Origin: Naegleria gruberi
Taxonomy: Eukaryota
DNA length: 64,000 nt
Assembly: GCA_000004985.1 (NCBI GenBank)
Contig: GG738908.1
Reading direction: 5' to 3' (one strand)
In this document: one piece after another, positions 2,341 through 44,082 of the stretch
Position numbering within the stretch: position 1 is the first letter of the stretch
How the letters are laid out: each line of letters opens with the position of its first letter
Translations under genes and position numbers: made by a program
The notes under the pieces: generated by a model
Database searches by the model: none
Seen by the model: only the letters and a program-made list of their open reading frames with translations
What the model was told of the DNA's origin: nothing

Positions 2341-5070
2341 ATGGCAGGAGATTTTCGGAAGGCGTTTTATGCTGCGGAAAAAGGCAAAATTGATGAATTT
2401 AATAATTATTTTAATGAACAAGACGTTAATAAATCACAGAGAGGTGTTACCATGTTATATATTGCTTGCCAAAATGGACATTTAGAAATTGTTAAATTAT
2501 TATTATCATGTAAAACAATTGATGTTAATTTGAGTGTAAGTATTTTAATATTTAATTTAATTTTATATTTATAATATTAGACTGTAAGTATTTCAATGTT
2601 TAATATTTTTTATATTTAAAATATACATTAGACTGTAAGTATTTGATATTTAATATTATTTTATATTTTTAATATTAGTATGTAAGTATTTTAATATTTA
2701 ATATTTTTTATATTTTTAATATTAGTATGTAAGTATTTAATATTTAATATTATTTTATATTTATAATATTAGACCGTAAGTAATTAATATTTAATTTGAT
2801 ATTATTTATGTTTATAATATTAGTTTGTAAGTATTTAATTTTATTTATATTAATAATATTAGATGGTAAGTATTTTAATATTTAATATTATTTTATTTTT
2901 AATATTAGACACCATTATACATTGCGTGCCACTATGGACATTTAGAAATTGTTAAAGAATTACTTCAACATCCAAATATTGAAATAGATAGCGAATTGTC
3001 AGTGAATGGAATTAATATTCAAACAATTAAAAGTGACATGGAAAAGGAACAACAAATATTACAAGAACAAATAGAACAAAAAAAGTTGAAACAACTAGAA
3101 ATGGAAAGATTAGAAAGAAAAAGAATTACAAAATTAGAAATGGAAAGAATTGAAAAAGAACGTTTATTAAAAATAGAAAGAGAAAGAAAAGAATTTGAGA
3201 AAAAGCAACCATTCATAATCACATCTGAAACACTTTCAAAATTATGTTCACTCAACCAACAAGTAGATAATAATAGAAGAAAAGTTGAAAAACAATTTGA
3301 ATCAATTCAATCATTTTCTTCTTCTATTCAAATTGAGAAAGAATTTCAAGATGAATATTTAAGAATTTGTGATAATTTAAATAATTGTTGTAATTTAATT
3401 GAAAAATTAACAAGTAATAATTATAATATTGAAAATAATGAACATTTGTCAACTATTAATAATTTAATGAATAATATTAGAACTATATTGGAATTTATTA
3501 ATAATCAAAAATATTTATTTAAATTACAATCTTATTCAGAAGTATTAAATGAAAAATTAGAATTATTTAATGAATTTAATTCTCAATTTATTAAACAAGA
3601 ATTATTTGACAATATTGAAATGAGTGAACAATCTATTAAGAATATAAAAAGTATTAATATTGTTCCAACTCATAATAAATTTGGAAATGAAACTAAAACA
3701 ATATTACAACAAGTTACAAAACAATTATCAAATATTGTAAACTCTATCAATAATTGTAATGAAATTGATTTGACACAATTTTCAAATAATTTACAAAAAG
3801 CAATGGAATTATCAGAACAAGAAGAATTATATTTAAATAATATATTGTCAAATTGTAAAATATTAATTTCAGACAATGATCAAATGAATATTTTACAATT
3901 ATATAATTATTATCAAAAACAAGAATTAAATTGTAAATTATTAATTCAAGAAACAATTCCATATATAATTGAAAAATATGAAATGTTACAAAATATTATA
4001 AATATTATGAATAATTATTCAAATTTATCTGAACAATTTAAAACTATTCAAAGACAAAAAACAAGAATTNAAGAAATTTAATTGTGANNNNNNNNNNNNN
4101 NNNNNNNNNNNNNNNNNNNNNNNNNNNNNNNNNNNNNCATGAAAATTTGAAAATTGAAATTTTAAATCTAGAAAAGGAAAAGAAACAATTTTCAAATTCA
4201 AAGTCAAAGAAAAGTGAAGAAATTTCAAAGAAATTACAAAATTTGAAACAAAAAGAAATTGAAATTGAGAAGATGGAAAAGGAAATTAAAGAATCAAAAT
4301 CCAAACAATTAACAATTTCACTTCCAAGTTATTGGAAAAGAAACACATTCCAAACTTATTCGAAAAGATATTACATTATTGATGTTACACAATATTTAAA
4401 AGATACAATGCAAGAAATTATGAATGTATCGTGTAATTCTGCAACACTTGGATCTGGAAGAGATCAATTATTAAGAATTAATTATTCTAAATTAATTGTT
4501 TCAAGTGTTTCAAGAATTGAAAATTCAACACTTTTCACTTCATTCAAATCAAGAATGAATCATTTAATTTCATATCAAGATTCAATTAATTCACTTCAAG
4601 TTCAAACTGAAAATATTTCAAAAACATCAAAAACATTTGAATGGATGAAAACAATTGGATTAAATTCTAATATGAATGAAAAATATTTATGGCATGGAAC
4701 AAAACCTGAATTTGTGAATACAATTGCAGAACATGGATTTGATGAAAGAGTTGCAAATTTAAATGGATTATTTGGAGCAGGTATTTATTTTGCAGAATAT
4801 TGTTCAAAGAGTGATCAATATTGTACACCTGATCATTCAAATGAATATACTCTTTTATTATGTAGAGTTGTAATGGGAAGACAAATTCATTTCACAAAAC
4901 AAGTGATGAATAATCAGAGAAGACCACCTGAAATTTCAGGAAGTAATAATAGAGTTTATGATAGTGTTATTGGTCAATCAAATACTTCAACTAATTCATA
5001 TAGAGAATTCATTGTCTATGATAAATGTCAATGTTATCCTGAATTTATTATTAAATACAAGAGACAATAA
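2341..5070 (+). CDS. Ankyrin-repeat / coiled-coil / PARP catalytic domain protein (tankyrase-like architecture). Exon 1 is 2341..2535, the intron is 2536..2908, and exon 2 is 2909..5070. Exon 2 is interrupted by the assembly gap 4088-4137 with an apparent frame change across the gap.
   Basis: aaaaaaaATG at 2341. Exon 1 encodes the ANK repeat 'TMLYIACQNGHLEIVKLLL'. Exon 2 opens with a second ANK repeat 'TPLYIACHYGHLEIVKELL' in the same frame as ORF 2996..4081, which is K/E-rich coiled coil ('LEMERLERKRITKLEMERIEKERLLKIERERKEFEKK'). After the gap, ORF 4084..5070 carries a PARP catalytic signature: 'YLWHGT' (His), 'GIYFAEY' (Tyr), 'YREFIVYD' (Glu), i.e. an H-Y-E triad. Confidence 0.6.
2536..2908 (+). 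repeat. Intronic tandem array of about 8 mini-intron-like units (~45-50 nt each, GTAAGT...TTAG) separated by 3-nt spacers.
   Basis: Direct reading shows units beginning gtaagtat at 2536, 2584, 2635, 2682, 2729, 2776, 2827 and 2866, each ending 'aatattag' or 'acattag'. The spacers are ACT, ACT, TAT, TAT, ACC, TTT, ATG. The last acceptor ...ttag|ACACCATTATAC gives in-frame 'TPLYIAC'. Confidence 0.8.
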
Positions 5071-21290: not shown

Positions 21291-22841
21291 TCAAGCAGCA
21301 CTGACTATTTCAGGAGTAACTCTTCTTGTGATTCTAACCTTTAAATTAGGGGAAGGTTTATGGACAGGACTTTGGATTGCAACAATTGGATCCTTCTCCA
21401 AATCATTCAACAATTCAAATTCGAATCTCTGAATCATTTTGGTCAATATCATGCAAGATTCCAATAGAGAAAACTTCTTTCCCAAACAAGCACGATTTCC
21501 CATACTGAATGGAACAAATGTAAAGTTGTGGAATGACGATTCTCTGAATTGTGGATCCACAAATCGATCAGCAATGAATTCGGTTGGTTTCTCCCAAACA
21601 TCAGGTCGTTTCATCAAGTATCCAAATAGGGTAGCTACATGAGTTCCCTTAGGAATTGAAAAATTACCCAATGTCGTATTCTTGACTGCAACACGAGATA
21701 GAATTTGAACTGCTGGATGAAGTCTGAAAGATTCCATAAGGACAGAGTTGACCAAATGAAGATTTGGAAAATCATCAATTGTTGGATCTCTTCTTCCAAT
21801 CGTTTTGGAAATTTCATTATAGAGCTCTTGTTGAATTGTTGGATTTTTGGAAATTTCAAAGGTTGTCCATTGTAAAAGTGTGGAAGTCGTATCATGACCT
21901 GCAAAACTCATTATTACACTGTTACTCTTCAGCTCATCATCAGTAATTAGCTTTTCTGTCATGTTTGCCTTCACCAATAATGTCAAAATGTCATTCATGT
22001 CATTAATCAATGGTTTGTCTTCCAACAATTTTTTTCTACTTTGAATCATTTCATCCAAAGATTTGCTACAGGTTTCCAAATGTCCATGAATGCCAACTAT
22101 CTTTGACATGATTGTTTGTAATTTTCCATTTCCAAATAGACGACGAATTGCCAAAGCTTTCATTGAGAATGTTTGTTGTAAACTTGTCTTGAAAGCTTTT
22201 CCTTCTTGATTGGAGGAGAATATTCCAAAATCGAGATTGAAACCTGCCTTACCAAGTACATCCAAAGTAATATCTGAAAAGTCATCATTCGAAAGCATGA
22301 CACCACTTTCGTCCTTGCTCCATCTTTCGAATAATAATTCTGCAGATTGACAAGCAACTTGACAAACATAGATTAAATTCTGAGGTGAGAATGCTGGACT
22401 GCAAACTTTAAAGTGTCTTTTCCATCTTTCGTTATTCACAGCACTCACAATATTTTCACCAAACATGGTAATAAATTTAAAATCAGGTTTTTCATAGCAA
22501 TTTGCTTTTAGAATGAAGAATTCCTTGAATAGTTTCGGATCACTGATTAAAACTATTGGAGCATCCTTTGTAACGATTCGAGCAGTTTTAGTTTCATCAT
22601 TCGAATAAGAATCGACTACATTTTCAATTTCCTTGACTGAACCAAAGTAATAGTAGGGAGAAAGAAGAGGAATTCTGAATGGAGAAAGTTCCAATAATTG
22701 GAAAACTCCTGGAATGTTCGATACCTTGCTGTATTGCTTGTACAATCTGAAAGCAAAATACGAAACCAAACTAATGACTGTTAGCAACAAGATTAAACCA
22801 AATGATTGCCAACTGTTTAAACTATAAAGGTATGTTAGCAT
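21291..22841 (-). CDS. Cytochrome P450 monooxygenase. Intronless paralog of 19498..21143, in convergent orientation.
   Basis: 516-aa uninterrupted ORF with 'MSFAGHDTTSTLLQW', 'ESFRLHPA', 'FSMGNRACLGKKFS' (heme Cys). About 40-45% colinear identity to the plus-strand P450 by eye ('SDITLDVLGKAGFNLDFG'). Confidence 0.8.
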   Translation of the reverse strand: MLTYLYSLNSWQSFGLILLLTVISLVSYFAFRLYKQYSKVSNIPGVFQLLELSPFRIPLLSPYYYFGSVKEIENVVDSYSNDETKTARIVTKDAPIVLISDPKLFKEFFILKANCYEKPDFKFITMFGENIVSAVNNERWKRHFKVCSPAFSPQNLIYVCQVACQSAELLFERWSKDESGVMLSNDDFSDITLDVLGKAGFNLDFGIFSSNQEGKAFKTSLQQTFSMKALAIRRLFGNGKLQTIMSKIVGIHGHLETCSKSLDEMIQSRKKLLEDKPLINDMNDILTLLVKANMTEKLITDDELKSNSVIMSFAGHDTTSTLLQWTTFEISKNPTIQQELYNEISKTIGRRDPTIDDFPNLHLVNSVLMESFRLHPAVQILSRVAVKNTTLGNFSIPKGTHVATLFGYLMKRPDVWEKPTEFIADRFVDPQFRESSFHNFTFVPFSMGNRACLGKKFSLLESCMILTKMIQRFEFELLNDLEKDPIVAIQSPVHKPSPNLKVRITRRVTPEIVSAA

Positions 22842-24074: not shown

Positions 24075-25151
24075 ATGCCTTCTAACAACAATTTCTCTCT
24101 AATTTCACTTCTTTCCTTTACAATTTTACTTTCTCTCGCCAATTTCACCCTTTCGAATAACAATAACTTAAAGATTGCTTCCTTTAATACTGCTCTAGTA
24201 CCTGGCACACCAGTCAATGTCAAGAAAATCATAGAAACCATACCAAAAGACCTCGATGTAGTCTTTCTCCAAGAAGTTTGGCTCCAATCTCATTCCCACC
24301 TAATTGCTGAAGAGCTGAAATCCTCATATCCATACTCCTTCCATGGACACAAGGAAGTTTTGAATGAAGCATCTTGTACGGATGATTCATTCCATAGATT
24401 CGCTCTTCCTTTCCTTCATTGTGTCCGTGAAAATAATTTGACACTTTCGTGGACAACTTTGGGACCATGTGCTGAATTTTTGAGTCGAGCTGCCTATGGA
24501 AATTTTAAATGTATATCCTGTGTCCTGACATCTATCGTTGAGAATAAGAATATGGCCAATTGTTACACTCCTGGACACACAGGTCAGGAATTTCTCTATG
24601 ACGGCTCCAATGGATTGATGGTTCTGAGTAAGACACCAATCTCACGTGCCAATTACACTTCCTATCCTTCATTTTTATTGAGTAGAGGATTATTAGAGAT
24701 GTGTATCAATGGTTTATATATTATGGAATCACACTTTCCTTTTAATTTTGGGATTGACTTGCCAGTAATGTATCAACCAGAGTTTTCTAGGATGGTTATC
24801 ATGAAGAGACCTAATATCTTGGTTGGCGATTTGAATAGTGGACCAATGACGCAACCAGAAGGTTATGAGACACTTGCTGGATATGGATATCAGTCAATTG
24901 ATCCAAATAAGGCAACTTTTTGTGTGAATGGATTAAATTGGGAAAGTGGCGATTGTTCTGATGATCCAGAAAGAAATACTGGAATGGATCATATCATGGT
25001 TGATAAATTTAGTAGAATTTTGGAATGGAATTTCAATAATTCCTTCAAACTCCAATTATTTGGAGACTCAACTCCAACTCCGAGTGATCATTTGGGTATC
25101 ACAACTGAGCTGAATTATAATATGGCTAGAAAACATCCATATTGTGTCTAA
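24075..25151 (+). CDS. Secreted endonuclease/exonuclease/phosphatase (EEP) family protein (sphingomyelin-phosphodiesterase/DNase I-like fold).
   Basis: Signal peptide 'FSLISLLSFTILLSLANF'. EEP motifs 'LKIASFNT', 'DVVFLQEVW', 'LVGDLNSG', and C-terminal 'SDHLGITTEL' (the SDH motif of the EEP fold). Single exon. Confidence 0.6.
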   Translation: MPSNNNFSLISLLSFTILLSLANFTLSNNNNLKIASFNTALVPGTPVNVKKIIETIPKDLDVVFLQEVWLQSHSHLIAEELKSSYPYSFHGHKEVLNEASCTDDSFHRFALPFLHCVRENNLTLSWTTLGPCAEFLSRAAYGNFKCISCVLTSIVENKNMANCYTPGHTGQEFLYDGSNGLMVLSKTPISRANYTSYPSFLLSRGLLEMCINGLYIMESHFPFNFGIDLPVMYQPEFSRMVIMKRPNILVGDLNSGPMTQPEGYETLAGYGYQSIDPNKATFCVNGLNWESGDCSDDPERNTGMDHIMVDKFSRILEWNFNNSFKLQLFGDSTPTPSDHLGITTELNYNMARKHPYCV

Positions 25152-25895: not shown

Positions 25896-26825
25896 TTAAA
25901 TGTAATTATTTTTGTTGTAATACGAAACTGAAACATTCATTCCAAATCTAACATTTGCATACAATATATGAATATGATCGAGTTTTACACTTCTCAACTC
26001 TTTCATTTCACTAATTGCCTTGGAACCTTCCCTTTCAATATTTTCATTTCCATGAATGTATAAAGTTTTCAAGTTGACCAAGTTACTGAGATACTTTGCA
26101 CCCTGAGTTTGAATTTGATTGTGATCAATGGTGAGGAGAGTTAGATTTTGCATTTTTCCAATAAATTTGGCGCCTTCATCTCCAATTTCGTTTAGTCTAA
26201 TGTTTAGGTTTGTTAATTGGTTCAATTGACTAAGTGATTTGGCTCCTTCATCATTAATTCGATTGCAACTAATATTAAGAATAGTTAATTTTTGCAGTTG
26301 ACTAATTGATTTTTCGCCTTCAAAATCACCAAGTAAATTATTGGAAATGTCTAGCTCTGTTAAATTTTTCAGTTGACCAATAAATTCTGCTCCTTGATAA
26401 ATGCCATTTATAGAAATATTTAACGATGTTAAATGTTCCAATTGACTAATTGATTTGGCTCCTTGAATTCCAATATTGTTATGATTTAGAGTAAGTTTTG
26501 TTACATTTTTCATCTTTCGTAAACTTTCGACTAGTTTCTTCCTTTCGAATAAAACTTGTTCAGCAAACTTGACCATTTCAAAACAATTTAAAAATTCGCT
26601 GTTATCAATCAACGTTTCCATCTCATCACTGATCACATTAAATTCAATGGAAAATTTCGAATAGTTTCGGATAACATTCATCCATTGTTTGGAGACGAGT
26701 ATACAATTCAACAAGACAAATTTATAATCATCAGATAAATAGGAAAATATTTCTGTGCAAATTTCATCAGGAAATAATTTGTGGCTGTCTTGTTTTTCCA
26801 TTTTTTTTAAAGTTTCTAATAACAT
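25896..26825 (-). CDS. F-box / leucine-rich-repeat (RNI-like LRR) protein.
   Basis: N-terminal 'LFPDEICTEIFSYLSDDYKFVLLNCILVSKQWMNVI' (F-box) followed by about 8 LRRs of the type 'LTxLNIxxNxIGDEGAKxISQLxxL'. Confidence 0.6.
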   Translation of the reverse strand: MLLETLKKMEKQDSHKLFPDEICTEIFSYLSDDYKFVLLNCILVSKQWMNVIRNYSKFSIEFNVISDEMETLIDNSEFLNCFEMVKFAEQVLFERKKLVESLRKMKNVTKLTLNHNNIGIQGAKSISQLEHLTSLNISINGIYQGAEFIGQLKNLTELDISNNLLGDFEGEKSISQLQKLTILNISCNRINDEGAKSLSQLNQLTNLNIRLNEIGDEGAKFIGKMQNLTLLTIDHNQIQTQGAKYLSNLVNLKTLYIHGNENIEREGSKAISEMKELRSVKLDHIHILYANVRFGMNVSVSYYNKNNYI

Positions 26826-27233
26826 TTTTAAACTAATTTCCTGTGACCTAGTTCATAAAAATAATATCTGATGAGAAATGAGAAAATCAAGGCACCAAAT
26901 GCGAGAAAAGTAATTTGGTTGAATTTCGAAGAAATTAAGGAAAAGGGCCGACTTTTGGCGGGAGAATCATGTGCTTCGTACACCATTATCAATGTCCTTA
27001 GTTGACCATTTTTGAATAATTTCGAAGGATTAAAAGTAATATCGATTAGCGAACTATCAATAATTTAAACAATTTCTGTGCTAAATGCAAGTTTTCACAC
27101 TCGGTATGCGAAACTGTGTGAAAATGCAATAATTGAGCAAAAATTGAATTAATTGGTTGAGAATTAATAGAAAAAAATAAGAACACTTGAAAGATAGAAA
27201 AAGTGATATTGAAAGTTTTTAAAAAGTGTGAAA

Positions 27234-28239
27234 ATGAATGAGATTTTGCAGTTGACTCACGAATCGATCAAACATTTGGATGTTTTCATGTCGAATTATG
27301 TTCCTTACATGAAATCTAATATATCAACAGATTATCCAGATGATAAATTATCAGAATTGAATTTCTTTGATGGTGGAATGGTGAAATTGTGGATTTTCAT
27401 GTTGGAGAATTATTCACTCACGATGGTGACAATTGTCTTGCCATTTGTCATTTTGTTTTTGAATTATTTCATTCCTAGTGGATTGATGTGGTTGGTAGAG
27501 TGGTGCGACTTTGATTTTCTGAGGAAATATAAGATTCAACCTGTAAGTAGTTAAATTTTTATTGGAAACCTTGACGAAACTATTTCAGAAAAGGAAAAAT
27601 AGTGGAATGAAGATTGTTAAGGCAACATTCTATTTGTTATTCATTTACTTTTTGGTGATTCTTCCAATGTATGCAGTTGCTTTTCACTTTCTTACTCAAA
27701 TTGACTACTTTAGTCTCGAAGTTTCGAATATCCCAAATTGGAAAGTTCTTCTCCTTCAATTAGCTTTCTGTTTCTTCATGGAAGACACAGCTCACTACTG
27801 GTTCCATAGGTGGCTTCACACACCATGGGCCTATCACGTCATCCACAAAATCCATCACGAATTCGAATCTCCAACCATACTTTCCACTAGTTTCGCTCAT
27901 CCCTTAGAAATCTTAATACTTGGATTCGCCACCTTTCTAGGACCTCTTCTTCTCCGTCCACATTTCCTTACCCTTTTAATCTTTGTCAACCTTAGACAAT
28001 TGGCAGCTTGTGAAACTCATTCGGGCTTTGATTTCCCATTTTCTCCGAATAATTTGGCGCCAAACTTAATTGGAGGTGCAGATTTTCATGATTTTCATCA
28101 TCGTAGATGTAGTGGAGTATTTTCATCGAATTTCATGTGGTGGGATATTTGGTGTGGAACTTGTGGTGGATTCTTTGAGTGGAAACTCAAACAACAAAAG
28201 AAGAAACTAGCCGAATCGAATAAAATTCATCAAGAATAA
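27234..28239 (+). CDS. ERG25: C-4 methylsterol monooxygenase (ERG25/SMO, fatty-acid-hydroxylase superfamily), 2 exons: join(27234..27542, 27589..28239).
   Basis: Three His boxes, 'HRWLHTPWAYHVIHKIHHEFESP' and 'FHDFHHRRC'. Colinear with human/yeast SMO motifs ('YKIQ', 'AHPLEILILG', 'NFMWWDIWCGT'). Donor cct|GTAAGT at 27543 and acceptor ...tatttcag| at 27588, both phase 0. Confidence 0.85.
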
Positions 28240-28352
28240 CCTTGTAAGCATCAGTGTTCAATACTAAACACTTGACAAATATGGAACTTTATAGTTCAAT
28301 CCGGAGTTGTACTATTTCGGAGTTCACTTCCGTTAGCCACAAATTAAAAAAA

Positions 28353-31300
28353 ATGTCATCACCACAACATGCAACCCTGCTTCTCGCCTTTTTNNNNNNN
28401 NNNNNNNNNNNNNNNNNNNNNNNNNNNNNNNNNNNNNNNNNNNNNNNNNNNNNNNNNNNNNNNNNNNNNNNNNNNNNNNNNNNNNNNNNNNNNNNNNNNN
28501 NNNNNNNNNNNNNNNNNNNNNNNNNNNNNNNNNNNNNNNNNNNNNNNNNNNNNNNNNNNNNNNNNNNNNNNNNNNNNNNNNNNNNNNNNNNNNNNNNNNN
28601 NNNNNNNNNNNNNNNNNNNNNNNNNNNNNNNNNNNNNNNNNNNNNNNNNNNNNNNNNNNNNNNNNNNNNNNNNNNNNNNNNNNNNNNNNNNNNNNNNNNN
28701 NNNNNNNNNNNNNNNNNNNNNNNNNNNNNNNNNNNNNNNNNNNNNNNNNNNNNNNNNNNNNNNNNNNNNNNNNNNNNNNNNNNNNNNNNNNNNNNNNNNN
28801 NNNNNNNNNNNNNNNNNNNNNNNNNNNNNNNNNNNNNNNNNNNNNNNNNNNNNNNNNNNNNNNNNNNNNNNNNNNNNNNNNNNNNNNNNNNNNNNNNNNN
28901 NNNNNNNNNNNNNNNNNNNNNNNNNNNNNNNNNNNNNNNNNNNNNNNNNNNNNNNNNNNNNNNNNNNNNNNNNNNNNNNNNNNNNNNNNNNNNNNNNNNN
29001 NNNNNNNNNNNNNNNNNNNNNNNNNNNNNNNNNNNNNNNNNNNNNNNNNNNNNNNNNNNNNNNNNNNNNNNNNNNNNNNNNNNNNNNNNNNNNNNNNNNN
29101 NNNNNNNNNNNNNNNNNNNNNNNNNNNNNNNNNNTATTGATGGTATCAATTCTTTCACAATTACTGGCTCTACATTTGCAAACAATTCCAAATTACACAT
29201 GACAACTGTTTTCAGCTCTACCTTGAGAGGTTTGACTTTTGAGGGAAATGAAAATGTTCTTTCTGCGAAAGGAATTGGTTCTTTTACATTGGAGCATTCA
29301 AATTTTACTCGCAATGGTAATCCAATTTATATTTCAGGAAATCAATTGACAAATCAATTTAGAAAAATTAGTTTTTGTTTATTTGAGGACAATTGGTCAA
29401 CCAGCAATGGTCTTATAACATTGGAACAGTTTCCCACACATGTGGAATTTAACAATTTCAGAAATAATTGGGCAGTGAATGGAGGAATAATTTATGCAAC
29501 TAGTTCCATAATTACTTTGGATAAAAATCAGTTTGTGGATACTTATGCAAGATTCATTGAAGGTTGTTTAGTTGATAATTGTGGAAATGGAGGAATTGCC
29601 TATATTTCTAATACTATTTTGTACATGTCCAATCTCATTATTCAAAATACTCAAGCAATTAGAGGAGGAATTGTTTATTCTGAGGGAAATTCTCGAATTC
29701 AAACCCAAAATTGTGATATTTCAGATAATATTGCTTCTTTGGCTGGTAATTTATTTTACTTTGGAGATGTTATTGATTTTAATGCCCAAAATTATTCGAA
29801 ATCTGACCTGAGTTCGAGGAAAACAACTCGAGCACTTTGGAGAACGGAATCTAGTCAACCTTACGATAATCAACGAATTGCCATCCAACCCGGGCAAACA
29901 ATACAATTGGATTTTGAGTATTTTGACATGTTTGACAACAGATTCAATAGAACAAATTCTGCTCCAATTATTAAGGCAAGTGATTCATCCAACATTCTTG
30001 TATCCCTCGTTTCAATTGATCCACTTTCCAATACTGACTTTAAATTCTTCTTGCAAGTGTCAGAAACTTCAAAAAGCTCAAATATTTCAGTATATCTCCC
30101 ATTCCATGACTTTACATTTGAGATTGATATTGATATTATTGGATGCCCTTTTGATTATGGTTTATCACCACTTTTAAATTCACACTACAACGTGTGTGTC
30201 TATAGAGGTTATATTATAATTGTATTCTCCTCTATTGGCATTGCAATCATTCTACTGGTTGCAATTTATTTATTGATCTATGTTGTTAAGAGATTACTCA
30301 AATTGAGAAAGAAGGAAATGACTGAAAAGGAAATTGCACAAAAGATTATTGATAAGAATTTTGTTTTTTCTATCAATACTGATAATGAGCACACTCCATT
30401 ATTATCAAAACTGGAAGTTGCCAAGATTAGTAATATCTTAATTCCAATTGAGGATATTGAAATCATCAAAAGAATTGGAGAAGGAGCTAATGGTACTGTA
30501 TACTTAGCTAAATGGCAAGGAAATCGTGTAGCTCTAAAAAGTTTAAAATTCGAAAGGGATAGCACTGACTTTGAAAATGAAGCATCTCTCCTTAATAATT
30601 TGAGACATCCTTCTATTGTGAGATTTTATGGAATTGTAGTGTCTTCTTCAGTTAAATACATGGTTACAGAGTTTGTGGAAAATGGAAGTTTGGATGCAGC
30701 CATTCATAATTCCAAAATTGGAAAGAAGAAACTTGATTTACAAACAAAATTACAAATTTTGAGAGGAATTGCAAATGGAATGAACTATCTTCATAATTTG
30801 AAAACTCCATGTCTTCACAGAGATTTGAAATGTCAAAATATTCTTCTCAATTCCAACATGGAACCAAAGGTTACAGATTTTGGATTGTCAAAATTGACTT
30901 TAAATTCAATGACATTGACTTGCAATATTGGAACAGCTCTTTACATGGTAAGTTTTCAAATTTAAGAGAGTTAAACCGAGTCAATCATTGTAAAGTCTCC
31001 TGAATTATTTGGAAGTGGTTACAAAATTTCATACAAATTGGACGTTTACAGTTTCTCCATCATCATGTACGAATTATTCTTTGAGGAAACTCCATTCTTT
31101 AGCTCATCAGCCAAGATGAGAAAATTTATCATTTCATCCACTGAACAATCACCAGAAGATGATCATGATACAATGAATTTTGGTTTTGCAATTCCAGTAA
31201 AAGTTTCGAAAGGAGAACGGCCAATGCTTCCCTGGACTAATGATGAGGAATGTGAAATGTGGATTAAGGAATTTATAGAACCCTATGAAGGAGGAGGAGG

Positions 31301-31475
31301 AGGAAATAATAGTAGTAGCAAAAGATCTTCATCCCTATTGAAAGTATTGCAAGTTAGCTTACAATATATTAACTTGATGAAGGAATGTTGGAGTCAGGAT
31401 CCAAATCAAAGACCGAACTTTTCCCAAATTGAGACGGAATTATTCAACATGATCAATGAAATTTCCAACCAATAA
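28353..31475 (+). CDS. Receptor protein kinase (TKL/tyrosine-kinase-like) with a parallel beta-helix (Pmp-like 'GGxIY') ectodomain: join(28353..30947, 30996..31475). The N-terminal part is interrupted by the 741-nt assembly gap 28394-29134.
   Basis: aaaaaaaATG at 28353. Repeated beta-helix motifs 'NGGIIYATSS', 'NGGIAYISNT', 'RGGIVYSEGN', 'AGNLFYFGD'. TM 'IIIVFSSIGIAIILLVAIYLLIYVV'. Kinase subdomains 'IGEGANGTVYLAKWQGNRVALK', 'HRDLKCQNILL', 'DFGLSK', then after the intron 'SPELFGSGYKISYKLDVYSFSIIMYELF' and 'CWSQDPNQRPNF'. Donor atg|GTAAGT at 30948 and acceptor ...gtaaag| at 30995. Confidence 0.7.
28394..29134. other. Assembly gap (741 N) inside the beta-helix receptor-kinase gene. Other gaps: 4088-4137 (50 N, plus a single N at 4068) and 61996-64000 (2005 N, to the end of the window).
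   Basis: Runs of N read directly from the sequence. The ORF-track 'XXXX' proteins across them are artefacts. Confidence 0.99.
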
Positions 31476-31549
31476 ATTATTCTCCTTCAACTATTTAATA
31501 TATTTAATATATTTAAAATTTAATACTTAATATTTAATTATTAAAAAAA

Positions 31550-33214
31550 ATGTTTAAACAACAAATAGTGAAAAGAACATTATCAAGCAGACTGCTTTGT
31601 ACCCTCATTAAACAATCCAAATCATCATCATCTCTAGTTATTAATCCTTCCCTTTCATTCCGTAATTTTTCTCTCATCAACAATAAGAATACAACACAAA
31701 CAACAACATCAACATCAAACTCTAAAAACGAACCTCCACAAACAACATCAAACAACACTAACACTACTACTGGTGAGGATAAACAAGTCTTTCTATCACT
31801 TGATCCGGAAACTAGAACTCTCACACTTGCCAATGAAAGAAATTTAAAAGTAGCCTTGAAGGAAACTCAAGAAAAGGTTTCAAAGGTTACGCAAACTTTT
31901 AGAACATTATTGCAGAATGCTTGGATTTTCAAGGCTTTTTCTATAATTTGTGTGTTGGGATTGTTGGTTTTGGAGGAGTACTTTAAATTGTCTCGTGTTG
32001 AACAGGAGTTTACTACAACAATTTCTGCTGAGGAGAGGGACCATTTTGAGAGATCTATTGAGAGAAAGAAGGAAGAGGAAGAGTTGGAGCAATTTGCATT
32101 GCATAGTGTCAATCAATATAGTATGATTTATGGACAAAGGTTTGTTGTTAATTGTAATGATATTGATTGATTGATTTACTGTTTAATTTTGATATTATGT
32201 GATTTTGATTTTGGATTTTGATAATACTGATTGATCTATCAATTAATAATAATCAAATTTGATTTGGATTGAATTTCATGAAATTAAAGTGGAAGTGGAA
32301 AGACTGAACTTTGTAGAAGATTAATTTATAGAGCCAAAAGGCAAGGAATTCCTGTCTTTTATTCATCAGCATCAGAAAGACAATACGAAGCTAGATTGAA
32401 GACCGAATTGGGTTATTTCACATTTGTTACTCAATTCTTCCACTATGTTAAAAAAGCTTTGAGTGTCGATTCATCCAGTGATATTTTGAAAGATTTGGAA
32501 AGAGTTGGCAACGAAGTTAAGAAAAAGACAGGAAAGAGACCAATTATGATTATTGATAATGCTCATCAACTTGTTGCCAATCCAGACAGTGAACAATTTT
32601 TGAGGAATTTGCAAGAATTAGCTAAGAGAATGGCTGATCAAGAAGCTCTCAATGTTATCTTTGTGGTGACACTTGATGGTGCTAAAACTGTTCAAAGAGA
32701 ACTTTTAAAGAGAGAATTTTCTAGTAGAATGAGAGTTTATGGAGTTGGAGAAATGACTAAAGATGAAGCAATTAAATATTTGGATACAAAGTTTGGAGTT
32801 ACTGATCCAAAGCAAATTTCCGACATTTTCCAAGTTGCTGGTTGCGTTCCAAAGTACTTGAACTGTTACAATCAACTCTCACAAATCACATCATCAATTA
32901 CTGAGGCCTTTATCTCAGCAAAGGTCGATCCATTGTTCAATGGACCTTTTAGGGAAATTGCCAAAGCAATTCTAGAAAATGGTTCTGTTGATATTCATGA
33001 TTTTGAAGCCAAAACACCTGCCACAGAAGTTATTGATTATCAACATGTTGTCCTTCAATCAACACCACACCCAGTTCGTACCTTGTTAGAAGATAACATT
33101 ATCTTCACACGTAACGAACGAAAGGTTGTTTTCAAAAATTCAGGAATTGAAAACTATGTCAAAAACATTGTAAATGGGAACAGGAAAGAACTGTCCAATA
33201 CCAGCAACAAATAA
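31550..33214 (+). CDS. P-loop NTPase with a predicted N-terminal mitochondrial presequence and a single TM anchor: join(31550..32139, 32290..33214).
   Basis: aaaaaaaATG at 31550. 'MFKQQIVKRTLSSRLLCTLIKQSK' is basic and hydroxylated with no acidic residues. TM 'AWIFKAFSIICVLGLLVLEEYF'. Donor ag|GTTTGT at 32140 (phase 2) and acceptor ...attaaag| at 32289 create Walker A 'GQSGSGKT'. Walker B-like 'IMIIDNAH'. The family is not identified. The donor is non-consensus (GTTTGT), so the join is inferred. Confidence 0.45.
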
Positions 33215-39821: not shown

Positions 39822-42800
39822 ATGGAGAAAGTACCACTCCAGCAAATATCAAAAAGAAAAGGTACGACCTTCAGATTCTTCCATGAAGCTAGTTGCAACG
39901 AGATAAATCAGCACAGAGCAGTGCTGTCATCATCATTGACAACAAGGAGTGGTTTGATCACACTGATGATTGTTGTTATAATAATGATGCTGGTTGTTGT
40001 GGAACATTCGGAAGCATCTCCCACAACAATAGCAGTTGCTGGTAGTGTGGGTAATACAGACGAGGCTTGGAATTTTCCACTGTATGGTACGGGTATATTT
40101 GTGGTGCCAAACAGTGATCCTTCATTGTTGCCAACTTTTTATGTTTCTGATGGAAATTTGTGTGTTGTGAGACAGATCATTGGAAATCAAAGTCGAGTGG
40201 TGGCAGGAACAGGTGAATGTTTACCAAACGGTGCTGATTCAGTTCCTGGAACAGAATCTACCTTGTATGGACCTACGAATATGTATTATGATGCTACTAC
40301 AGATTTTCTCTACATTTTGGATTCGTCATCTATTAGATTATTGGACATGAAGAGTGGAATAATTTCTAAAATGCTCATTACATTCAGTGGAACTAATTTA
40401 AACTCATTTTCTCAACCAAGTGGTATTACCATGTTCAATAAGGATATTTATGTGGCAGATACAGGAAAAGCTGTTGTGTGGAAAGTGCAAATTACCTATA
40501 GAAATGTTGGTACAGCAACAATTAGTGTTGGAAGTTTGAATAATATGAATAACAATAATTATTGTGATAATGTTTATGCCACCACGTGTAAACTTATCAA
40601 ACCTACAAGTATCTCTTTCTTCCCAGATGGAACCAAGGCAATTGCAGATGGAAGAAGAGTTATTATTGTTACTCCAACCAATTCGGCATATGAAGCTCCT
40701 GTATCCATGTCTATGAACAATCCAGTACATGTTGTCGCCTATGATGCATCCAACTTGTTGATTTCAGATCTAGGACTAGCACGTTTTATACAATTTAACA
40801 AGGATCAAGCACAACCAAATACTAATGTGGTATTGTCATCTTCTTGGGCAAGAAATACTTATTTTGGACTTGTGAAACAAGCAGACAATTCTAAAAATGT
40901 ATACTTCCTCACAGGTCAAGATTACACAACAAAGAGAAGTCAAATTGTTTCGTTTAACTTTATTGATAGCGATTTACCAAGTACTTCTACAACACCATTA
41001 TATGGCATGTATGACTCTGGATTCCAGTTTGATAATCCACATAATGCATTGAGTGTTTACATGCCTAGTCCACAACAAATGAGACTAACTTCAAGTAATC
41101 AATTGTATTTCCCAATTTTTAATTCTGCTGTTGTAAAGGTAGATTTGAATTCTGGATTAGTGACAAGAATTGCTGGAAGTATTACACAATTTGGATATAA
41201 TCAAGACAGTATCCCTGCAACCATAGCTCTGATGACTAGACCAAATACTGTTTTACAATTGGATTCCGGAGATTTAATCATTTCAGATACAGGTAATAAC
41301 AGAATTAGAAAAATTGATTCAAATGGAATTATAACTACAATAGTTGGTACAGGAACGCAAGGAAATAGTGGAGATTATGGGCCTGCAAGTCAATGCCAAT
41401 TAAATGGTCCACAAGGACTGGCAACACCTCCAACAAGCATGAAAGGTCAATTTTTGTTTGATTTTGCTGACACTAATAATAACAGAATTAGAAGAATACA
41501 AAATGACTTGACAGTTATACCCCTATTAAGCAATAATCCTAATAATGATGGAATTAACGGACCAAATGGAATAATGTACACGCCAAATGGTGATCTTTAT
41601 ATCGCCAGTCAAGGAAATCACAAAATAATGAAATACAGTAATTCACAATTGAGTACTGTTGCTGGAAATGGTTATGCAGGTTATTCAGGAGATGGAGGAC
41701 CAGCCAGAAATGCCAAGTTGAACTATCCTGCAGATGTTACAGTTTCCTCCACAGGTGAAGTTTATATTGCAGGTATGTTTTGAAGAAATTTAATGTAATT
41801 TTTAAACGATTCATCTACTAGATTGGGGAAATAGAGCTGTAAGAAAAGTTTTCAGAAATGGAACAATTATTACTCTTATTGTTAGTGGCGGACTTTCGGA
41901 CTTGAATGGTGTTACATTGACACCGAATGGAGATTTGTTGTATTCAACACAATTATGGGTCAAGCTGTATATGGAGGGAGATTCAGGAAGTTGTATTGAT
42001 AAGAATACATGCAATAATCATGGCAGTTGTGTGAATGGAAAGTGTGTTTGTGATAGTGGATGGAGAGGAAATTTGAATTGTGGAACATTTTCATGTGACA
42101 TTACACCACCACCTCATTCTTCACAATGTATTGGTCCAAATCAATTTTCTTGTCAAGATGGGTGGACAGGATTAAATTGCCAGGAACCAGTTTGCTTTGG
42201 AACTCCAGCAAACACCACAACAGTATGCAGTTCACACGGTAAATGTATTTCCAATAATACATGTAATTGTGTGAGTGGATGGAGAGGCAATTCAGATTGC
42301 AGTGCATTTTCATGTGATGTAAAATCTGAACATGGAGAGTATTGTATTGGACCTAATACCTACAAATGTCAAGATGGCTGGATTGGTGATTTATGTGACA
42401 TTCCACTTTGTAATGGAATTCCAGCAAATAATCCAGCAGTTTGCAATTCACACGGACAGTGCATTTCCAATAATACATGTAATTGCTTTAGTGGATGGAG
42501 AGGAAATAGTATTTGCACTCAATTTACATGTGATGGTGTCAATAATTGTCAACCTCATGGTCAATGCATTTCTAATAATACTTGTAAATGTAGTACTGGT
42601 TATGGTGGAAATGGATGTAACGATAGAATGTGCTTTGGTAAATGGGGTCAAGCAGGTTGCAGCAATAATGGATATTGTTCAAATACTGACAAGTGCAGTT
42701 GTTTCCCTCTCTATTTTGGACAACAATGTCAGTGGCTTGATTGTAATCCCTCTTCAAATGATCAATCCATTAATTCTACTAAGGGCTGTTCTTCAAATGG

Positions 42801-44082
42801 AAACTGTACTGTTATTGACAATGATCAAACCAGACAAAACTCAACAATTTGTAAATGTAACGAAGGATTTGATGGGCTGTATTGTCAAGAAAAGAAGTCA
42901 TCAGGAAATGGTGGAACTGTTGCAGCTGTTGTCATTGTTGTGTTGCTTTTCATTTGTTGTTTGATTGCTTTCATAGCAGTTGGTGGTTTTGTTTATTACA
43001 AGAAACGAGCAAGTTCCAAATCAGAGGAATTTGAGAATTTGATTCCAAAATCTGTTAACGACGATTGGACTTTGAGAACTGTTATTCCTCCAGAGGAGGC
43101 AACTGTGAAAAGTACAGCCTCTTCTGTTAAATCTGAAAATAGCTTTATACGGTCAATTAGAAAGCAACTGGGTAGTTCAAGTACAACATCTTCTGTATCA
43201 ACCATTAACACAAGAGATCATTTCCATATTAGAGATAAAGAATATGTGAAATCAAAGAAATTGGGATCAGGTGCAAGTGGAACAGTTTTCATGTTTGATG
43301 AGTTGACCAATAAGGAACAAGTTGCTGTGAAAATTATTGAAGTTTTAAATCCAAATGGAAGCGAATTTAAGGAAGTTGTGAACATGTTTGAATTGAGTGA
43401 AGAAGCAAATCCTCACATTGTTCCAATTCTAGGATGTACAATGGTTGAAAATGGAGGATATATTTGTATCTTGATGCCATTATACAAATGTGATTTGAGA
43501 AATTGGATGTATTCCAATAAGGAGACGGTTCCAATCGAAATAATTGTCGAAATTGTGAAACAAATTGCATCAGCACTTCAATATCTCCATTCTAAGAACA
43601 TGGTACACAGAGATTTGAAACAAAGTAATATATTTGTTTCAAAATCACCTGATCTTTCAAAGAATAATGTGAATGTTTCATCTTTCCAACTTTGTGTTGG
43701 AGATTGGGGATCTTCAAGATATCAAACAAGATCTTCTTTAACTGCTTATGAAGGAACAATTCAATACAGTTCACCAGAGTCAATTGTAAAAGCAGAATTT
43801 TCACCAAAAAGTGATGTTTGGAGTCTTGGATGTATTTTATATCAATTATTATCAGCAGATTACAATACTTGTTTGATGAGAGTGAAACAAACCTCAATGA
43901 ATGACCAATCAGATGTTCAAATCATAGGAAATGTTGAAAAATTCTTTTCAAAACGTTCAGATCATTCACACAAACTTTACAAAATCATTTGTGATTTAAT
44001 GTTGGAAATGTTGAGATTTAATCCAGAGGAGAGAATTTCCACAGATGAAATTGTCCAAAAACTCTCAATGAACAATGTTTAA
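39822..44082 (+). CDS. Receptor-type protein kinase with NHL-repeat beta-propeller ectodomain, about 8 tenascin-type EGF repeats, a TM helix and a cytoplasmic kinase: join(39822..41772, 41822..44082).
   Basis: aaaaaaaATG at 39822 with N-terminal signal anchor 'GLITLMIVVIIMMLVVV'. NHL repeats 'LIISDTGNNRIRKID', 'FDFADTNNNRIRRIQ', 'LYIASQGNHKIMKY'. Donor g|GTATGT at 41773 and acceptor ...ctactag| at 41821 give '...VYIAG'+'DWGNRAVRKVF'. EGF repeats 'CNNHGSCVNGKCVCDSGWRGNLNCGTFSC'. TM 'TVAAVVIVVLLFICCLIAFIAVGGFVYY'. Kinase 'GSGASGTVFM', 'VAVKII', 'HRDLKQSNIFV', 'GDWGSS'. Confidence 0.7.

What the first reader, a model, noticed from the sequence alone, without database searches (positions are those of the whole stretch)
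28353..31475. Receptor kinase with Pmp-like parallel beta-helix ectodomain. The ectodomain is partly lost in a 741-N gap.
Upstream of the TM helix the protein has repeated 'N/R-G-G-I-[IAV]-Y' and 'FxxN' motifs, characteristic of right-handed parallel beta-helix (pectin-lyase-like or Chlamydia polymorphic-membrane-protein-type) repeats. These are fused to a TKL-like kinase (HRDLKCQNILL, DFGLSK). Beta-helix ectodomains on eukaryotic receptor kinases are uncommon and suggest carbohydrate or bacterial-surface sensing. About 740 nt of the ectodomain are missing from the assembly, so the repeat number and any N-terminal signal peptide are unknown. The intron at 30948-30995 splits the conserved 'YM|SPE' (APE) motif of the activation segment.
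Basis: partly seen in the sequence, partly recalled or inferred. Interest (0 to 1): 0.55.

Follow-up and report, generated by a model that had tools for sequence, protein, structure and literature searches.

The report
Naegleria beta-helix receptor kinase gene
This is a real but apparently unannotated gene of the amoeba Naegleria gruberi, interrupted by an assembly gap, that encodes a single-pass membrane kinase whose outer part is a bacterial-adhesin-like (Pmp-type) beta-helix; it belongs to a small, undescribed Naegleria family and is an unusual but not revolutionary kind of receptor kinase.

Summary
The window is Naegleria gruberi NEG-M.

**Gene layout, + strand**
- ATG at 28353, with signal-peptide-like residues.
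- 741-N gap at 28394-29134.
- Open frame from 29136.
- TM helix at 30210-30287.
- Kinase at 30456-31433, with all catalytic motifs present.
- 48-nt GTAAGT..AG intron at 30948-30995, which splits YM|SPE.
- Stop at 31473-31475.

**Ectodomain evidence**
- Pfam finds nothing in the 358-aa post-gap ectodomain.
- An exhaustive HMMER scan finds Chlam_PMP-repeat proteins, down to E = 7.5e-10.
- It also finds three co-linear PMP+TM+kinase homologues: N. gruberi EFC38231, N. gruberi EFC46676, and an ENA protein whose 90% cluster contains N. fowleri CAG4708412.
- Profile-profile comparison with PMP repeats gives 99.1% probability.

**Kinase.** It is closest to the TKL/TK kinases CTR1, CERK1 and Eph.

**Limits.** It is not a chlamydial Pmp: there is no autotransporter barrel and no strict Pmp core pattern. 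Ligand, localisation and the gap content remain unknown. I found no paper describing the family. I rate it a new variant of receptor kinase, of moderate interest.

The parts
28353..28393 (+). Probable start of the gene: ATG plus 13 codons (MSSPQHATLLLAF), a signal-peptide-like N-terminus that is cut off by the gap. An alternative in-frame ATG lies at 28281.
   Evidence: The ATG has an A-rich upstream context. It is in frame with 29136 if the gap is exactly 741 nt. The upstream FA_hydroxylase gene ends at 28239. Paralogues have 350 or more residues N-terminal to the aligned region, so the gene must extend into the gap.
28394..29134 (.). Assembly gap of 741 N. It hides the rest of the signal peptide and the N-terminal part of the ectodomain, about 247 codons if the gap size is exact.
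   Evidence: The content could not be recovered.
29136..29780 (+). Pmp-type right-handed parallel beta-helix (post-gap aa 1-215). It contains NGGIIY, NGGIAY and RGGIVY, five FxxN motifs, and five hxxN-x(3-5)-GG-like coil signatures.
29808..30143 (+). Ig-like beta-sandwich 'stalk' domain (aa about 225-336). It carries the family-conserved PGQ...D.F.N motif.
   Evidence: strand pattern, pLDDT about 65-82; Foldseek hits to SbsC S-layer Ig-like domains at E = 1.9e-4, also invasin and Ig domains; P252, G253, D264, F266 and P277 are invariant among the four family members.
30144..30209 (+). Membrane-proximal Cys-bracketed stub (CPFDY...NVCVYRG).
   Evidence: C337, P338 and C354 are invariant in all four family members.
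30210..30287 (+). Single transmembrane helix (26 hydrophobic residues), followed by the basic stop-transfer stretch KRLLKLRKKE (30288-30317).
   Evidence: Read directly from the sequence. Six N-x-S/T sequons lie on the N-terminal side and basic residues on the C-terminal side, which indicates type I topology.
30288..30455 (+). Cytoplasmic juxtamembrane segment, ending in the family-specific motif IPIEDIEI.
   Evidence: conserved in EFC38231 and EFC46676; the tool chose IPIE[DN]I[ED]I as the most conserved pattern.
30456..30947 (+). Kinase domain, exon part 1: G-loop GEGANG (30477-30494), VALK (30528-30539), HRDLKCQN (30816-30839), DFG (30876-30884). It ends at ...ALYM.
   Evidence: (Pkinase 178.5 bits).
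30948..30995 (+). Intron of 48 nt, GTAAGT...AAAG, phase 0. It splits YM|SPE (the APE motif).
   Evidence: in-frame TAA if retained, and the same GTAAGT 5' splice site as the neighbouring gene's intron at 27543. The annotated paralogue EFC46676 ends at ...LFYMR, the homologous position.
30996..31475 (+). Kinase domain, exon part 2 (SPE, DVYSF, CWSQDPNQRP; domain end about 31433), with two inserts that include a GGGGGNNSSS low-complexity stretch. A short C-terminal tail and the TAA stop (31473-31475) follow.

Best explanation
The locus encodes a type I, single-pass receptor-type serine/threonine (TKL-like) protein kinase of Naegleria gruberi.

Architecture
- From the N-terminus: signal peptide; an N-terminal region hidden in the gap; a Pmp/Chlam_PMP-type right-handed parallel beta-helix; an Ig-like beta-sandwich stalk; a disulfide-bracketed stub; one TM helix; a conserved juxtamembrane segment; and a catalytically competent kinase domain.
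- It belongs to a small Naegleria family with the same co-linear architecture: N. gruberi EFC38231/D2VXZ4, N. gruberi EFC46676/D2V8F7, and N. fowleri CAG4708412.

Likely mechanism (inferred, not shown)
- The elongated beta-helix presents a lateral binding surface, as in bacterial Pmp-type adhesins and beta-helical glycan-binding proteins.
- That surface would bind an extracellular polymer or surface, most plausibly glycans or envelope components of bacterial prey, or of other cells or substrate.
- Multivalent ligand would cluster or dimerise the receptor. The cytoplasmic kinases would then trans-autophosphorylate and signal to the feeding, adhesion or motility machinery.

What is shown and what is inferred
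- Shown here: gene structure, domain order, topology signals, kinase motif integrity, homology to PMP-repeat proteins, the predicted fold, and the existence of paralogues and an orthologue-like gene.
- Inferred: plasma-membrane location, ligand class and activation by clustering.
For: Gene and organism
- The window is N. gruberi.
- The ORF, intron and stop are as described.

Kinase
- Pkinase 2.2e-52.
- GxGxxG, VALK, HRDLKxxN, DFG, SPE, DVYSF and the subdomain XI Arg are all present.
- The nearest solved kinases are CTR1, CERK1, LysM-RLKs, Eph, RIPK2 and TAK1.

Topology
- A 26-residue TM helix is followed by KRLLKLRKKE.
- Six N-glycosylation sequons lie on the N-terminal side.

Beta-helix
- There are 49 significant HMMER hits in 1.84 billion representatives.
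- The non-kinase hits are GGA/FxxN-rich, and those scanned carry Chlam_PMP at 4e-11 to 4.5e-45.
- The query matches them in several repeat registers.
- hhalign gives 99.1% probability, E = 1.7e-18.
- PDB and NCBIfam sequence hits go only to Rhombotarget A.
- The AF2 model has pLDDT 77.9 and pTM 0.68.

Stalk: Foldseek hits to Ig-like domains.

Family
- EFC38231 matches at E = 7.5e-25 across aa 3-357 of the ectodomain and is 52% identical over 207 cytoplasmic residues.
- EFC46676 and the N. fowleri cluster are co-linear through ectodomain, TM helix, juxtamembrane segment and kinase.
- Both pass the Pfam Chlam_PMP gathering score: 22.7 and 28.6 bits against a cut-off of 20.6.
Against: - Pfam finds no domain in this protein's own ectodomain, even at E <= 10.
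- The published strict chlamydial core pattern GGA[ILV]-x(14,18)-FxxN occurs zero times (pattern from PMC11166332).
- FxxN counts alone are not above chance.
- The structure is a prediction from a 4-sequence alignment.
- The gap hides about 40% of the ectodomain and could conceal a frameshift, further introns or another domain. The attempt to model the homologous N-terminal region of EFC46676 failed (pLDDT < 50 for residues 27-294).
- No expression, localisation, ligand or activity data exist.
- No annotated protein for this gene was found in the public sets.
- The Dictyostelium analogue VSK3 sits on endolysosomes rather than the cell surface, so a plasma-membrane sensor role is not guaranteed.
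Confidence: 0.72

Rival explanations
1. Endolysosomal or phagosomal receptor-like kinase. The architecture is the same, but the beta-helix faces the lumen of phagosomes or late endosomes. There it reports on ingested material and regulates phagosome maturation, as Dictyostelium VSK3 does.
For: VSK3 is a signal peptide + Ig-like (TIG) + single TM + TKL kinase protein of another phagotrophic amoeba. It localises to late endosomes/lysosomes and is needed for phagosome maturation (PMC2064856). Our protein also has an Ig-like module next to the membrane and a TKL-like kinase.
Against: No homology to VSK3 was tested or shown. No sorting motifs were examined. Six N-glycosylation sequons and a long adhesin-like helix fit a surface location equally well.
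Confidence: 0.2
2. Adhesion receptor rather than a soluble-ligand or prey sensor. The Pmp-like helix mediates homotypic or substrate adhesion, since Pmps oligomerise and adhere, and the kinase reports attachment to the cytoskeleton.
Confidence: 0.2
3. The ectodomain is an enzyme, a polysaccharide lyase or hydrolase tethered to the membrane, and the kinase is regulatory or vestigial.
Against: Sequence homology is to non-enzymatic PMP-repeat proteins and to RbtA, not to any CAZy family. There are no Pfam or NCBIfam enzyme hits. Identities to the enzymes are 7-15%. The kinase has every catalytic residue.
Confidence: 0.06
4. A pseudogene or assembly artefact. The gap joins unrelated pieces or hides disabling mutations, which would explain why no gene model exists.
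For: No annotated product for this gene was found. A 741-N gap lies inside the coding region.
Against: - The 763 post-gap codons are open, with only a canonical in-frame intron.
- All kinase motifs and all family-invariant ectodomain residues are intact.
- The upstream ATG is in frame and signal-peptide-like.
- Annotated paralogue models are themselves truncated, which points to annotation difficulty rather than gene decay.
Confidence: 0.07

Closest known systems
Uncharacterised Naegleria paralogues and homologue: N. gruberi EFC38231 (D2VXZ4, NAEGRDRAFT_73913), N. gruberi EFC46676 (D2V8F7, NAEGRDRAFT_65139), N. fowleri CAG4708412
   Same: They are co-linear throughout: PMP-type beta-helix with conserved GG motifs, the PGQ...D.F.N sandwich, the CP..Y...C stub, one TM helix, the IPIEDIEI juxtamembrane motif and a TKL-like kinase. 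The intron or truncation falls at the same ...YM| position in EFC46676.
   Different: Ectodomain identity is only 25-29%, against 44-52% in the cytoplasmic part (35-36% for the N. fowleri homologue). Our gene has no detectable annotated product and is broken by a gap. Its own PMP repeats fall below Pfam's threshold, whereas EFC46676 and the N. fowleri protein pass it.
Chlamydial polymorphic membrane proteins (Pmps) and other PF02415 (Chlam_PMP) repeat proteins
   Same: GG[AI][ILV] and FxxN signatures recur once per coil of a right-handed beta-helix. The order FxxN-x(4)-GG matches PF02415. Homology to Chlam_PMP-bearing proteins is significant (PMC11166332).
   Different: - There is no autotransporter beta-barrel, no Pmp_M middle domain and no outer-membrane context.
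- Anchoring is by a eukaryotic TM helix, and the domain is fused to a kinase.
- There is no instance of the strict chlamydial core pattern.
- Only three canonical GG motifs are visible. Pmps average 6.5 GGA(I,L,V) and 13.6 FxxN motifs per protein.
Rhombotarget A (TIGR04212; PDB 9cdu) of Acinetobacter
   Different: The score is far below the family cut-off (20.4 against 295 bits). RbtA is a bacterial secreted or rhombosortase-processed protein with no kinase.
Dictyostelium VSK3 / DRK receptor-like TKL kinases
   Same: A phagotrophic amoeba protein with signal peptide, Ig-like extracytoplasmic module, single TM helix and C-terminal TKL-type kinase (PMC2064856).
   Different: The VSK3 ectodomain is a single TIG domain with no beta-helix. 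It is endolysosomal and phosphorylates tyrosine. It comes from a different supergroup (Amoebozoa versus Discoba). Sequence relationship was not tested.
Plant RLK/Pelle receptor kinases (e.g. CERK1, LysM-RLKs) and Raf-like CTR1
   Same: The kinase domain is most similar to these among solved structures (CTR1 2.3e-37, CERK1 about 4e-32). The overall logic is the same: a glycan- or surface-binding ectodomain, one TM helix and a Ser/Thr kinase.
   Different: - Plant ectodomains are, from my own knowledge, LRR, LysM, lectin, malectin, WAK-EGF and similar types, not PMP beta-helices.
- The literature search found no receptor-like kinase described with a pectin-lyase-fold ectodomain.
- Monophyly with RLK/Pelle was not tested. 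Similar scores to Eph, EGFR, RIPK2 and TAK1 argue for an unaffiliated TKL-like kinase.
Entamoeba transmembrane kinases (TMKs), from my own knowledge
   Same: A lineage-specific expansion of single-pass receptor Ser/Thr/TKL-like kinases in a phagotrophic protist. Some are implicated in phagocytosis.
   Different: TMK ectodomains are Cys-rich CXXC/CXC repeats related to the Gal/GalNAc lectin intermediate subunit, not beta-helices. Not compared here.

Membership tests
Eukaryotic protein kinase superfamily (Pfam PF00069/PF07714) | Score above the curated gathering threshold over the full catalytic domain | tested here: met
   Pkinase 178.5 bits (cut-off 31.7), profile positions 2-258 of 263. PK_Tyr_Ser-Thr 174.5 bits (cut-off 23.1).
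Eukaryotic protein kinase superfamily (active enzyme rather than pseudokinase) | Catalytic residues: GxGxxG, VAxK Lys, alpha-C Glu, HRD Asp plus catalytic-loop Asn, DFG Asp, APE, subdomain IX Asp, subdomain XI Arg | tested here: met
   GEGANG, VALK, FENEASLL, HRDLKCQN, DFG, SPE, DVYSF and DPNQRP are all present. Enzymatic activity itself cannot be tested with these tools.
TKL group of kinases | Closest affinity to TKL families (MLK/Raf/IRAK-RLK/RIPK/LISK) with an HRDLKxxN catalytic loop | tested here: inconclusive
   The best PDB hits are CTR1, then EGFR, CERK1, LysM-RLKs, Eph, TNNI3K, RIPK2, ZAK and TAK1, at 132 to 103 bits. This is a TKL/TK neighbourhood, but no kinome HMM set or phylogeny was available to assign a family.
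Chlam_PMP repeat (Pfam PF02415) | Pfam gathering score (20.6 bits) reached by this protein | tested here: not met
   No Pfam family at all is reported for the 358-aa ectodomain at E <= 10. Paralogue EFC46676 (22.7 bits) and the N. fowleri-cluster protein (28.6 bits) do reach it.
Chlam_PMP repeat (Pfam PF02415) | Homology to bona fide PMP-repeat arrays by sensitive search | tested here: met
   - phmmer E-values are 7.5e-10 to 1e-3 (whole-library) against proteins carrying Chlam_PMP at 4e-11 to 4.5e-45.
- The matches occur in several repeat registers.
- hhalign gives 99.1% probability, E = 1.7e-18.
- The template alignment was built from hits to this query, so that test is partly circular.
Chlamydial Pmp autotransporter family | Core repeat G-G-A-[ILV]-x(14,18)-F-x-x-N (PMC11166332) | tested here: not met
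   Zero strict instances. Only degenerate versions occur (GG[AIV][ILVA]-x(11-23)-[FILV]xx[NDT]).
Chlamydial Pmp autotransporter family | C-terminal outer-membrane beta-barrel translocator (type V secretion) and Pmp_M middle domain | tested here: not met
   After the helix come an Ig-like sandwich, one alpha-helical TM segment and a kinase. There are no autotransporter or Pmp_M Pfam hits.
Right-handed parallel beta-helix (pectin-lyase-like) fold | Three-stranded coils stacked into a right-handed solenoid, recognised by structure comparison | tested here: met
Rhombotarget A (NCBIfam TIGR04212) | Equivalog cut-off of 295 bits | tested here: not met
   20.4 bits, E = 1.3e-4, local match to aa 113-212 only.
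Naegleria PMP-ectodomain receptor kinases (undescribed family defined here) | Co-linear homology through beta-helix, sandwich, Cys stub, TM helix, IPIEDIEI juxtamembrane motif and kinase | tested here: met
   Alignments A1-A3 have 33 invariant ectodomain columns and many invariant cytoplasmic columns. BLASTP gives 29% ectodomain and 52% cytoplasmic identity to EFC38231.
Plant/animal RLK-Pelle-IRAK family | Kinase domain nested within the RLK/Pelle clade in a phylogeny | not tested
   Only pairwise scores are available. CERK1 and LysM-RLK score below CTR1 and about the same as Eph and EGFR.
Type I receptor topology | Cleavable signal peptide, extracytoplasmic N-terminus, cytoplasmic kinase | tested here: inconclusive
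   The TM helix, positive-inside rule and N-glycosylation sequons fit this topology. Only 13 residues of the putative signal peptide are visible before the gap. Paralogue EFC46676 has a hydrophobic N-terminus.

The most novel reading that the evidence does not exclude
Naegleria, and perhaps Heterolobosea more widely, independently invented a class of pattern- or prey-recognition receptor kinases. It would have done so by capturing a bacterial Pmp-type adhesin beta-helix, possibly by lateral transfer from bacteria such as the chlamydial symbionts of amoebae, and fusing it through an Ig-like stalk and TM helix to a eukaryotic TKL kinase. The fast-evolving ectodomains (25-29% identity between paralogues, against 44-52% in the kinase half) would then be diversified sensors of bacterial or host surfaces, including in the pathogen N. 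fowleri.
Probability: 0.15. Interest if true: 0.7.

Novelty: new variant of a known kind. Interest (0 to 1): 0.42.

Why it matters
- Receptor kinases are best understood in animals and plants. How free-living phagotrophic protists outside those lineages sense prey, surfaces and hosts is largely unknown.
- A Discoba-lineage family that couples a bacterial-adhesin-type beta-helix to a TKL-like kinase would be another independent solution to 'surface polymer in, phosphorylation out'.
- It offers concrete candidates for prey or host recognition in Naegleria, including a homologue in the brain-eating N. fowleri.
- It gives a test case for domain capture from bacteria.
- Practically, the finding flags a real gene that current annotation appears to miss because of an assembly gap. 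It also shows that the annotated paralogues are truncated models.

Tried and rejected
1. Pfam on the ectodomain gave no hit at E <= 10. NCBIfam gave only a sub-threshold RbtA hit.

2. The word-indexed homology search failed three times.
 - The ectodomain alone gave nothing.
 - The full-length protein gave only generic kinases at 35% identity or less.
 - The family profile A2 gave one ENA PMP protein.
 - This tool did not return the N. gruberi paralogues even when they were in the query alignment. Its negatives are therefore uninformative, and I rely on the exhaustive HMMER scan.

3. Gap closure was not achieved.
 - Exact-product look-ups of the flanking ORFs 31550-32167 and 25899-26825, and of the unspliced post-gap ORF 29199-30962, were not on record.
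 - EFC46676 was not on record.
 - No version of this gene's ectodomain at 50% identity or more exists in the 15-billion-protein collection.

4. Family spread and origin could not be resolved.
 - The metagenome scan with the family alignment found only unrelated kinases at 23-27% identity.
 - Source names for the PMP hits were mostly absent: one EukProt transcript and one IMG 'outer membrane repeat protein'. A lateral-transfer origin could therefore not be tested.

5. The attempt to infer what the gap hides failed. The AF2 model of the EFC46676 ectodomain was unusable for residues 27-294 (pLDDT < 50).

6. The afdb50 fold library was unavailable.

7. Literature searches for Naegleria with Pmp, PF02415, receptor kinase or kinome found no description of this family. 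The trypanosomatid DGF-1 beta-helix 'rib' family reports no match in N. gruberi, so I rejected a DGF-1 relationship.

8. There is no overlapping minus-strand ORF of note and no Rfam family in 27000-33000.


Full report
**Source and setting**

Ten long ORFs of the window were looked up by exact sequence. Five are annotated proteins of Naegleria gruberi (EFC38407, EFC38408, EFC38409, EFC38359, EFC38369) on a 259,034-bp scaffold. The window is AT-rich, at about 33% GC, gene-dense, and has short GTAAGT...AG introns.

The finding's gene lies between two others:
- Upstream is a fatty-acid-hydroxylase gene ending at 28239.
- Downstream is a gene starting at 31550 that carries an ATPase/AAA domain.

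**Checking the observation**

The N run is 28394-29134, 741 N.

From 29136 a single frame stays open to 30947. A 48-nt intron follows (30948-30995, GTAAGT...AAAG), which carries an in-frame TAA if retained. The frame then continues from 30996 to the TAA at 31473-31475. This gives 763 residues after the gap.

Splicing joins ...ALYM to SPE..., and Pfam's Pkinase model then aligns across profile positions 2-258 of 263. The intron call is therefore sound.

ATG 28353 (MSSPQHATLLLAF) has an A-rich upstream context and looks like the start of a signal peptide. It is in frame with 29136 if the gap size is exact (783 nt). An alternative in-frame ATG lies at 28281.

- NGGIIY, NGGIAY and RGGIVY at aa 115, 151 and 176.
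- Five FxxN motifs at aa 14-108.
- A 26-residue TM helix at 30210-30287, followed by KRLLKLRKKE.
- HRDLKCQN and DFG.

In 20,000 composition-preserving shuffles the GG-type motif never reached three copies (0.008 expected). FxxN alone is not beyond chance (5 against 2.95, p = 0.16). The motifs do sit in register as hxxN-x(3-5)-[GN]G[AIL][IVF] five times between aa 83 and 207.

No competing ORF or Rfam family overlaps the region.

**What the ectodomain is**

No family is reported for the 358-residue ectodomain, even at E <= 10.

NCBIfam and the PDB sequence search each give one weak local hit, to Rhombotarget A. The scores are 20.4 bits against a 295-bit cut-off, and E = 4.4e-4 to 9cdu, over aa 110-216.

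The exhaustive HMMER scan of 1.84 billion cluster representatives is decisive. It gives 49 proteins at E <= 1e-3. Almost all of them are rich in GGA[ILV] and FxxN motifs.

Eight of the ten I scanned carry Pfam Chlam_PMP. The non-kinase hits score 4e-11 to 4.5e-45, and one also carries Beta_helix. The query aligns to them in several shifted registers, as repeat arrays do.

A profile of the Naegleria family against a profile of PMP-repeat segments gives 99.1% probability, E = 1.7e-18. The template was assembled from hits to this query, so that test is not fully independent.

An AlphaFold2 model from a four-sequence alignment has mean pLDDT 77.9 and pTM 0.68. It shows short-strand triplets through about aa 210.

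Foldseek instead picks up the segment at aa about 225-336 as an Ig-like beta-sandwich (SbsC S-layer domains at E = 1.9e-4, also invasin and Ig domains). A short stub bracketed by two invariant cysteines (CPFDY...C) precedes the membrane.

**The kinase**

All catalytic signatures are intact. HRDLKCQN is the Ser/Thr-type catalytic loop.

Among solved structures the best match is Arabidopsis CTR1 (2.3e-37). EGFR, CERK1, LysM receptor kinases, Eph receptors, TNNI3K, RIPK2, ZAK and TAK1 follow.

This places it in the TKL/TK neighbourhood without a clear family. Two inserts, one with a GGGGGNNSSS run, lie in the C-lobe (read directly).

**A family, not a singleton**

Three of the 49 HMMER hits are fused to kinases and are co-linear with our protein from the beta-helix to the kinase:

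| Protein | Source | Ectodomain match to ours |
|---|---|---|
| P0040 = EFC38231/D2VXZ4 | N. gruberi | E = 7.5e-25 over aa 3-357 |
| P0048 = EFC46676/D2V8F7 | N. gruberi | aa 8-344 |
| P0051 | ENA protein; its 90% cluster contains N. fowleri CAG4708412 | aa 48-348 |

Ectodomain identities are 29, 26 and 25%. The cytoplasmic parts of the two N. gruberi paralogues are 52% and 44% identical, so the outside diverges faster than the inside. The N. fowleri homologue is 35-36% identical in the cytoplasmic part.

EFC46676 and the N. fowleri protein pass Pfam's Chlam_PMP gathering score.

The annotated paralogues are visibly incomplete models. EFC38231 lacks both ends, and EFC46676 stops at ...LFYMR, the position homologous to our intron.

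Our own gene has no detectable product in the protein collections. The best ectodomain hit is only 33% identical, and the unspliced ORF is not on record. It is probably unannotated because of the gap.

**How it most likely works**

The shown anatomy is that of a type I receptor kinase:
- a glycosylatable extracytoplasmic region made of beta-helix, Ig-like stalk and Cys stub;
- one TM helix with basic residues on the cytoplasmic side;
- a conserved juxtamembrane motif;
- an apparently active Ser/Thr (TKL-like) kinase.

By analogy with Pmp-type adhesins and glycan-binding beta-helices, the helix most likely binds a polymeric or surface ligand along its side. Clustering by a multivalent ligand would then activate the kinases in trans. 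In PMC11166332 the conserved motif residues face the helix core and play a structural role.

For a bacterivorous amoeba, prey or substrate surfaces are the obvious ligand candidates. All of this is inference.

Rival readings:
- A phagosomal or endolysosomal location like Dictyostelium VSK3, which is signal peptide + TIG + TM + TKL kinase (PMC2064856).
- An adhesion-reporting role.
- An enzymatic ectodomain. This is unlikely, because there is no sequence link to any enzyme family.
- A pseudogene or artefact. This is unlikely given the intact ORF and motifs.

**Comparison with what is known**

It is not a chlamydial Pmp. There is no autotransporter barrel or middle domain, and no instance of the strict GGA[ILV]-x(14,18)-FxxN core. 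It is anchored by an alpha-helical TM segment.

It does contain PMP-type repeats in the broader PF02415 sense. That domain is already known to occur in almost 200 non-bacterial proteins (PMC11166332).

It is not related to the trypanosomatid DGF-1 beta-helix ribs, according to that study's own search of N. gruberi.

I found no paper describing Naegleria receptor kinases with this ectodomain, and none describing a receptor-like kinase with a pectin-lyase-fold ectodomain. That library is incomplete, so this is absence of evidence only.

**What could not be settled**

- The gap content.
- The origin of the helix, lateral transfer or not.
- The size of the family in Naegleria. The word-indexed search failed even to return known members.
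- Localisation, ligand and activity.

**Verdict**

This is a new, unannotated member of an undescribed Naegleria family. As an architecture it is a new variant of the receptor-kinase theme.

Interest is moderate. A second, unrelated receptor kinase lies 10 kb away in the same window, with an NHL + EGF ectodomain. Diverse receptor kinases are therefore not rare in this genome, which tempers the surprise. The Pmp-type helix as a kinase ectodomain remains unusual.

Noticed in passing
window 39822-44082 (+): A second, unrelated receptor-type kinase lies about 10 kb downstream. ORF 39822-41783 holds a signal anchor at aa 43-60 and NHL/teneurin-like NHL repeats. It appears to be joined by a GTATGT...CTAG intron (about 41777-41824) to ORF 41902-44082, which holds teneurin-like EGF repeats, a TM helix at aa 337-366 of that ORF and Pkinase at 9.3e-44. 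The kinase is only 27% identical to the kinase of the finding.
   Followed up: partly
proteins P0040 (EFC38231) and P0048 (EFC46676), N. gruberi, other scaffolds: The annotated paralogue models look truncated. EFC38231 lacks an N-terminal signal region and ends inside the kinase at ...SLIHR. EFC46676 ends at ...LFYMR, the position homologous to the YM|SPE intron here. The intron is therefore probably conserved and mis-modelled.
   Followed up: partly
L001 4001-6917 (ENA ERZ2098899 NODE_113, N. fowleri-like): In the N. fowleri-cluster homologue, the ORF-called product carries an extra 25 residues inside the glycine-rich loop (EGANG-KCIESTGHRVDDFTQQIMFHIVYT-GIVYLGKW). The annotated N. fowleri protein CAG4708412 lacks them, so they probably represent an unspliced intron. 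The contig ends before the rest of the kinase.
   Followed up: no
tool behaviour: The word-indexed protein search did not return the N. gruberi paralogues, even when their own sequences were part of the query alignment. The exhaustive HMMER scan and the exact look-up both found them. Negative results from that tool are therefore not evidence of absence for this organism.
   Followed up: partly
window 27235-28239 (+): The upstream neighbour is a fatty-acid hydroxylase/sterol-desaturase-like gene (FA_hydroxylase 8.3e-25). It has a short GTAAGT...TTTCAG intron starting at 27543, and its stop lies only 113 nt before the kinase gene's ATG.
   Followed up: partly
window 25896-26825 (-), 21291-22841 (-), 24075-25151 (+): Other neighbours are an F-box + LRR protein, a cytochrome P450 (EFC38409) and an endonuclease/exonuclease/phosphatase-family protein (EFC38359). 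The last has a close paralogue (EFC36140) on another scaffold.
   Followed up: no
window 4070, 4088-4137, 62016-64000: There are further N runs of 1, 50 and 1985 bases. The last fills the end of the window, probably as scaffold-end padding or a large gap. The region 2001-4000 is unusually AT-rich, at 21% GC.
   Followed up: no
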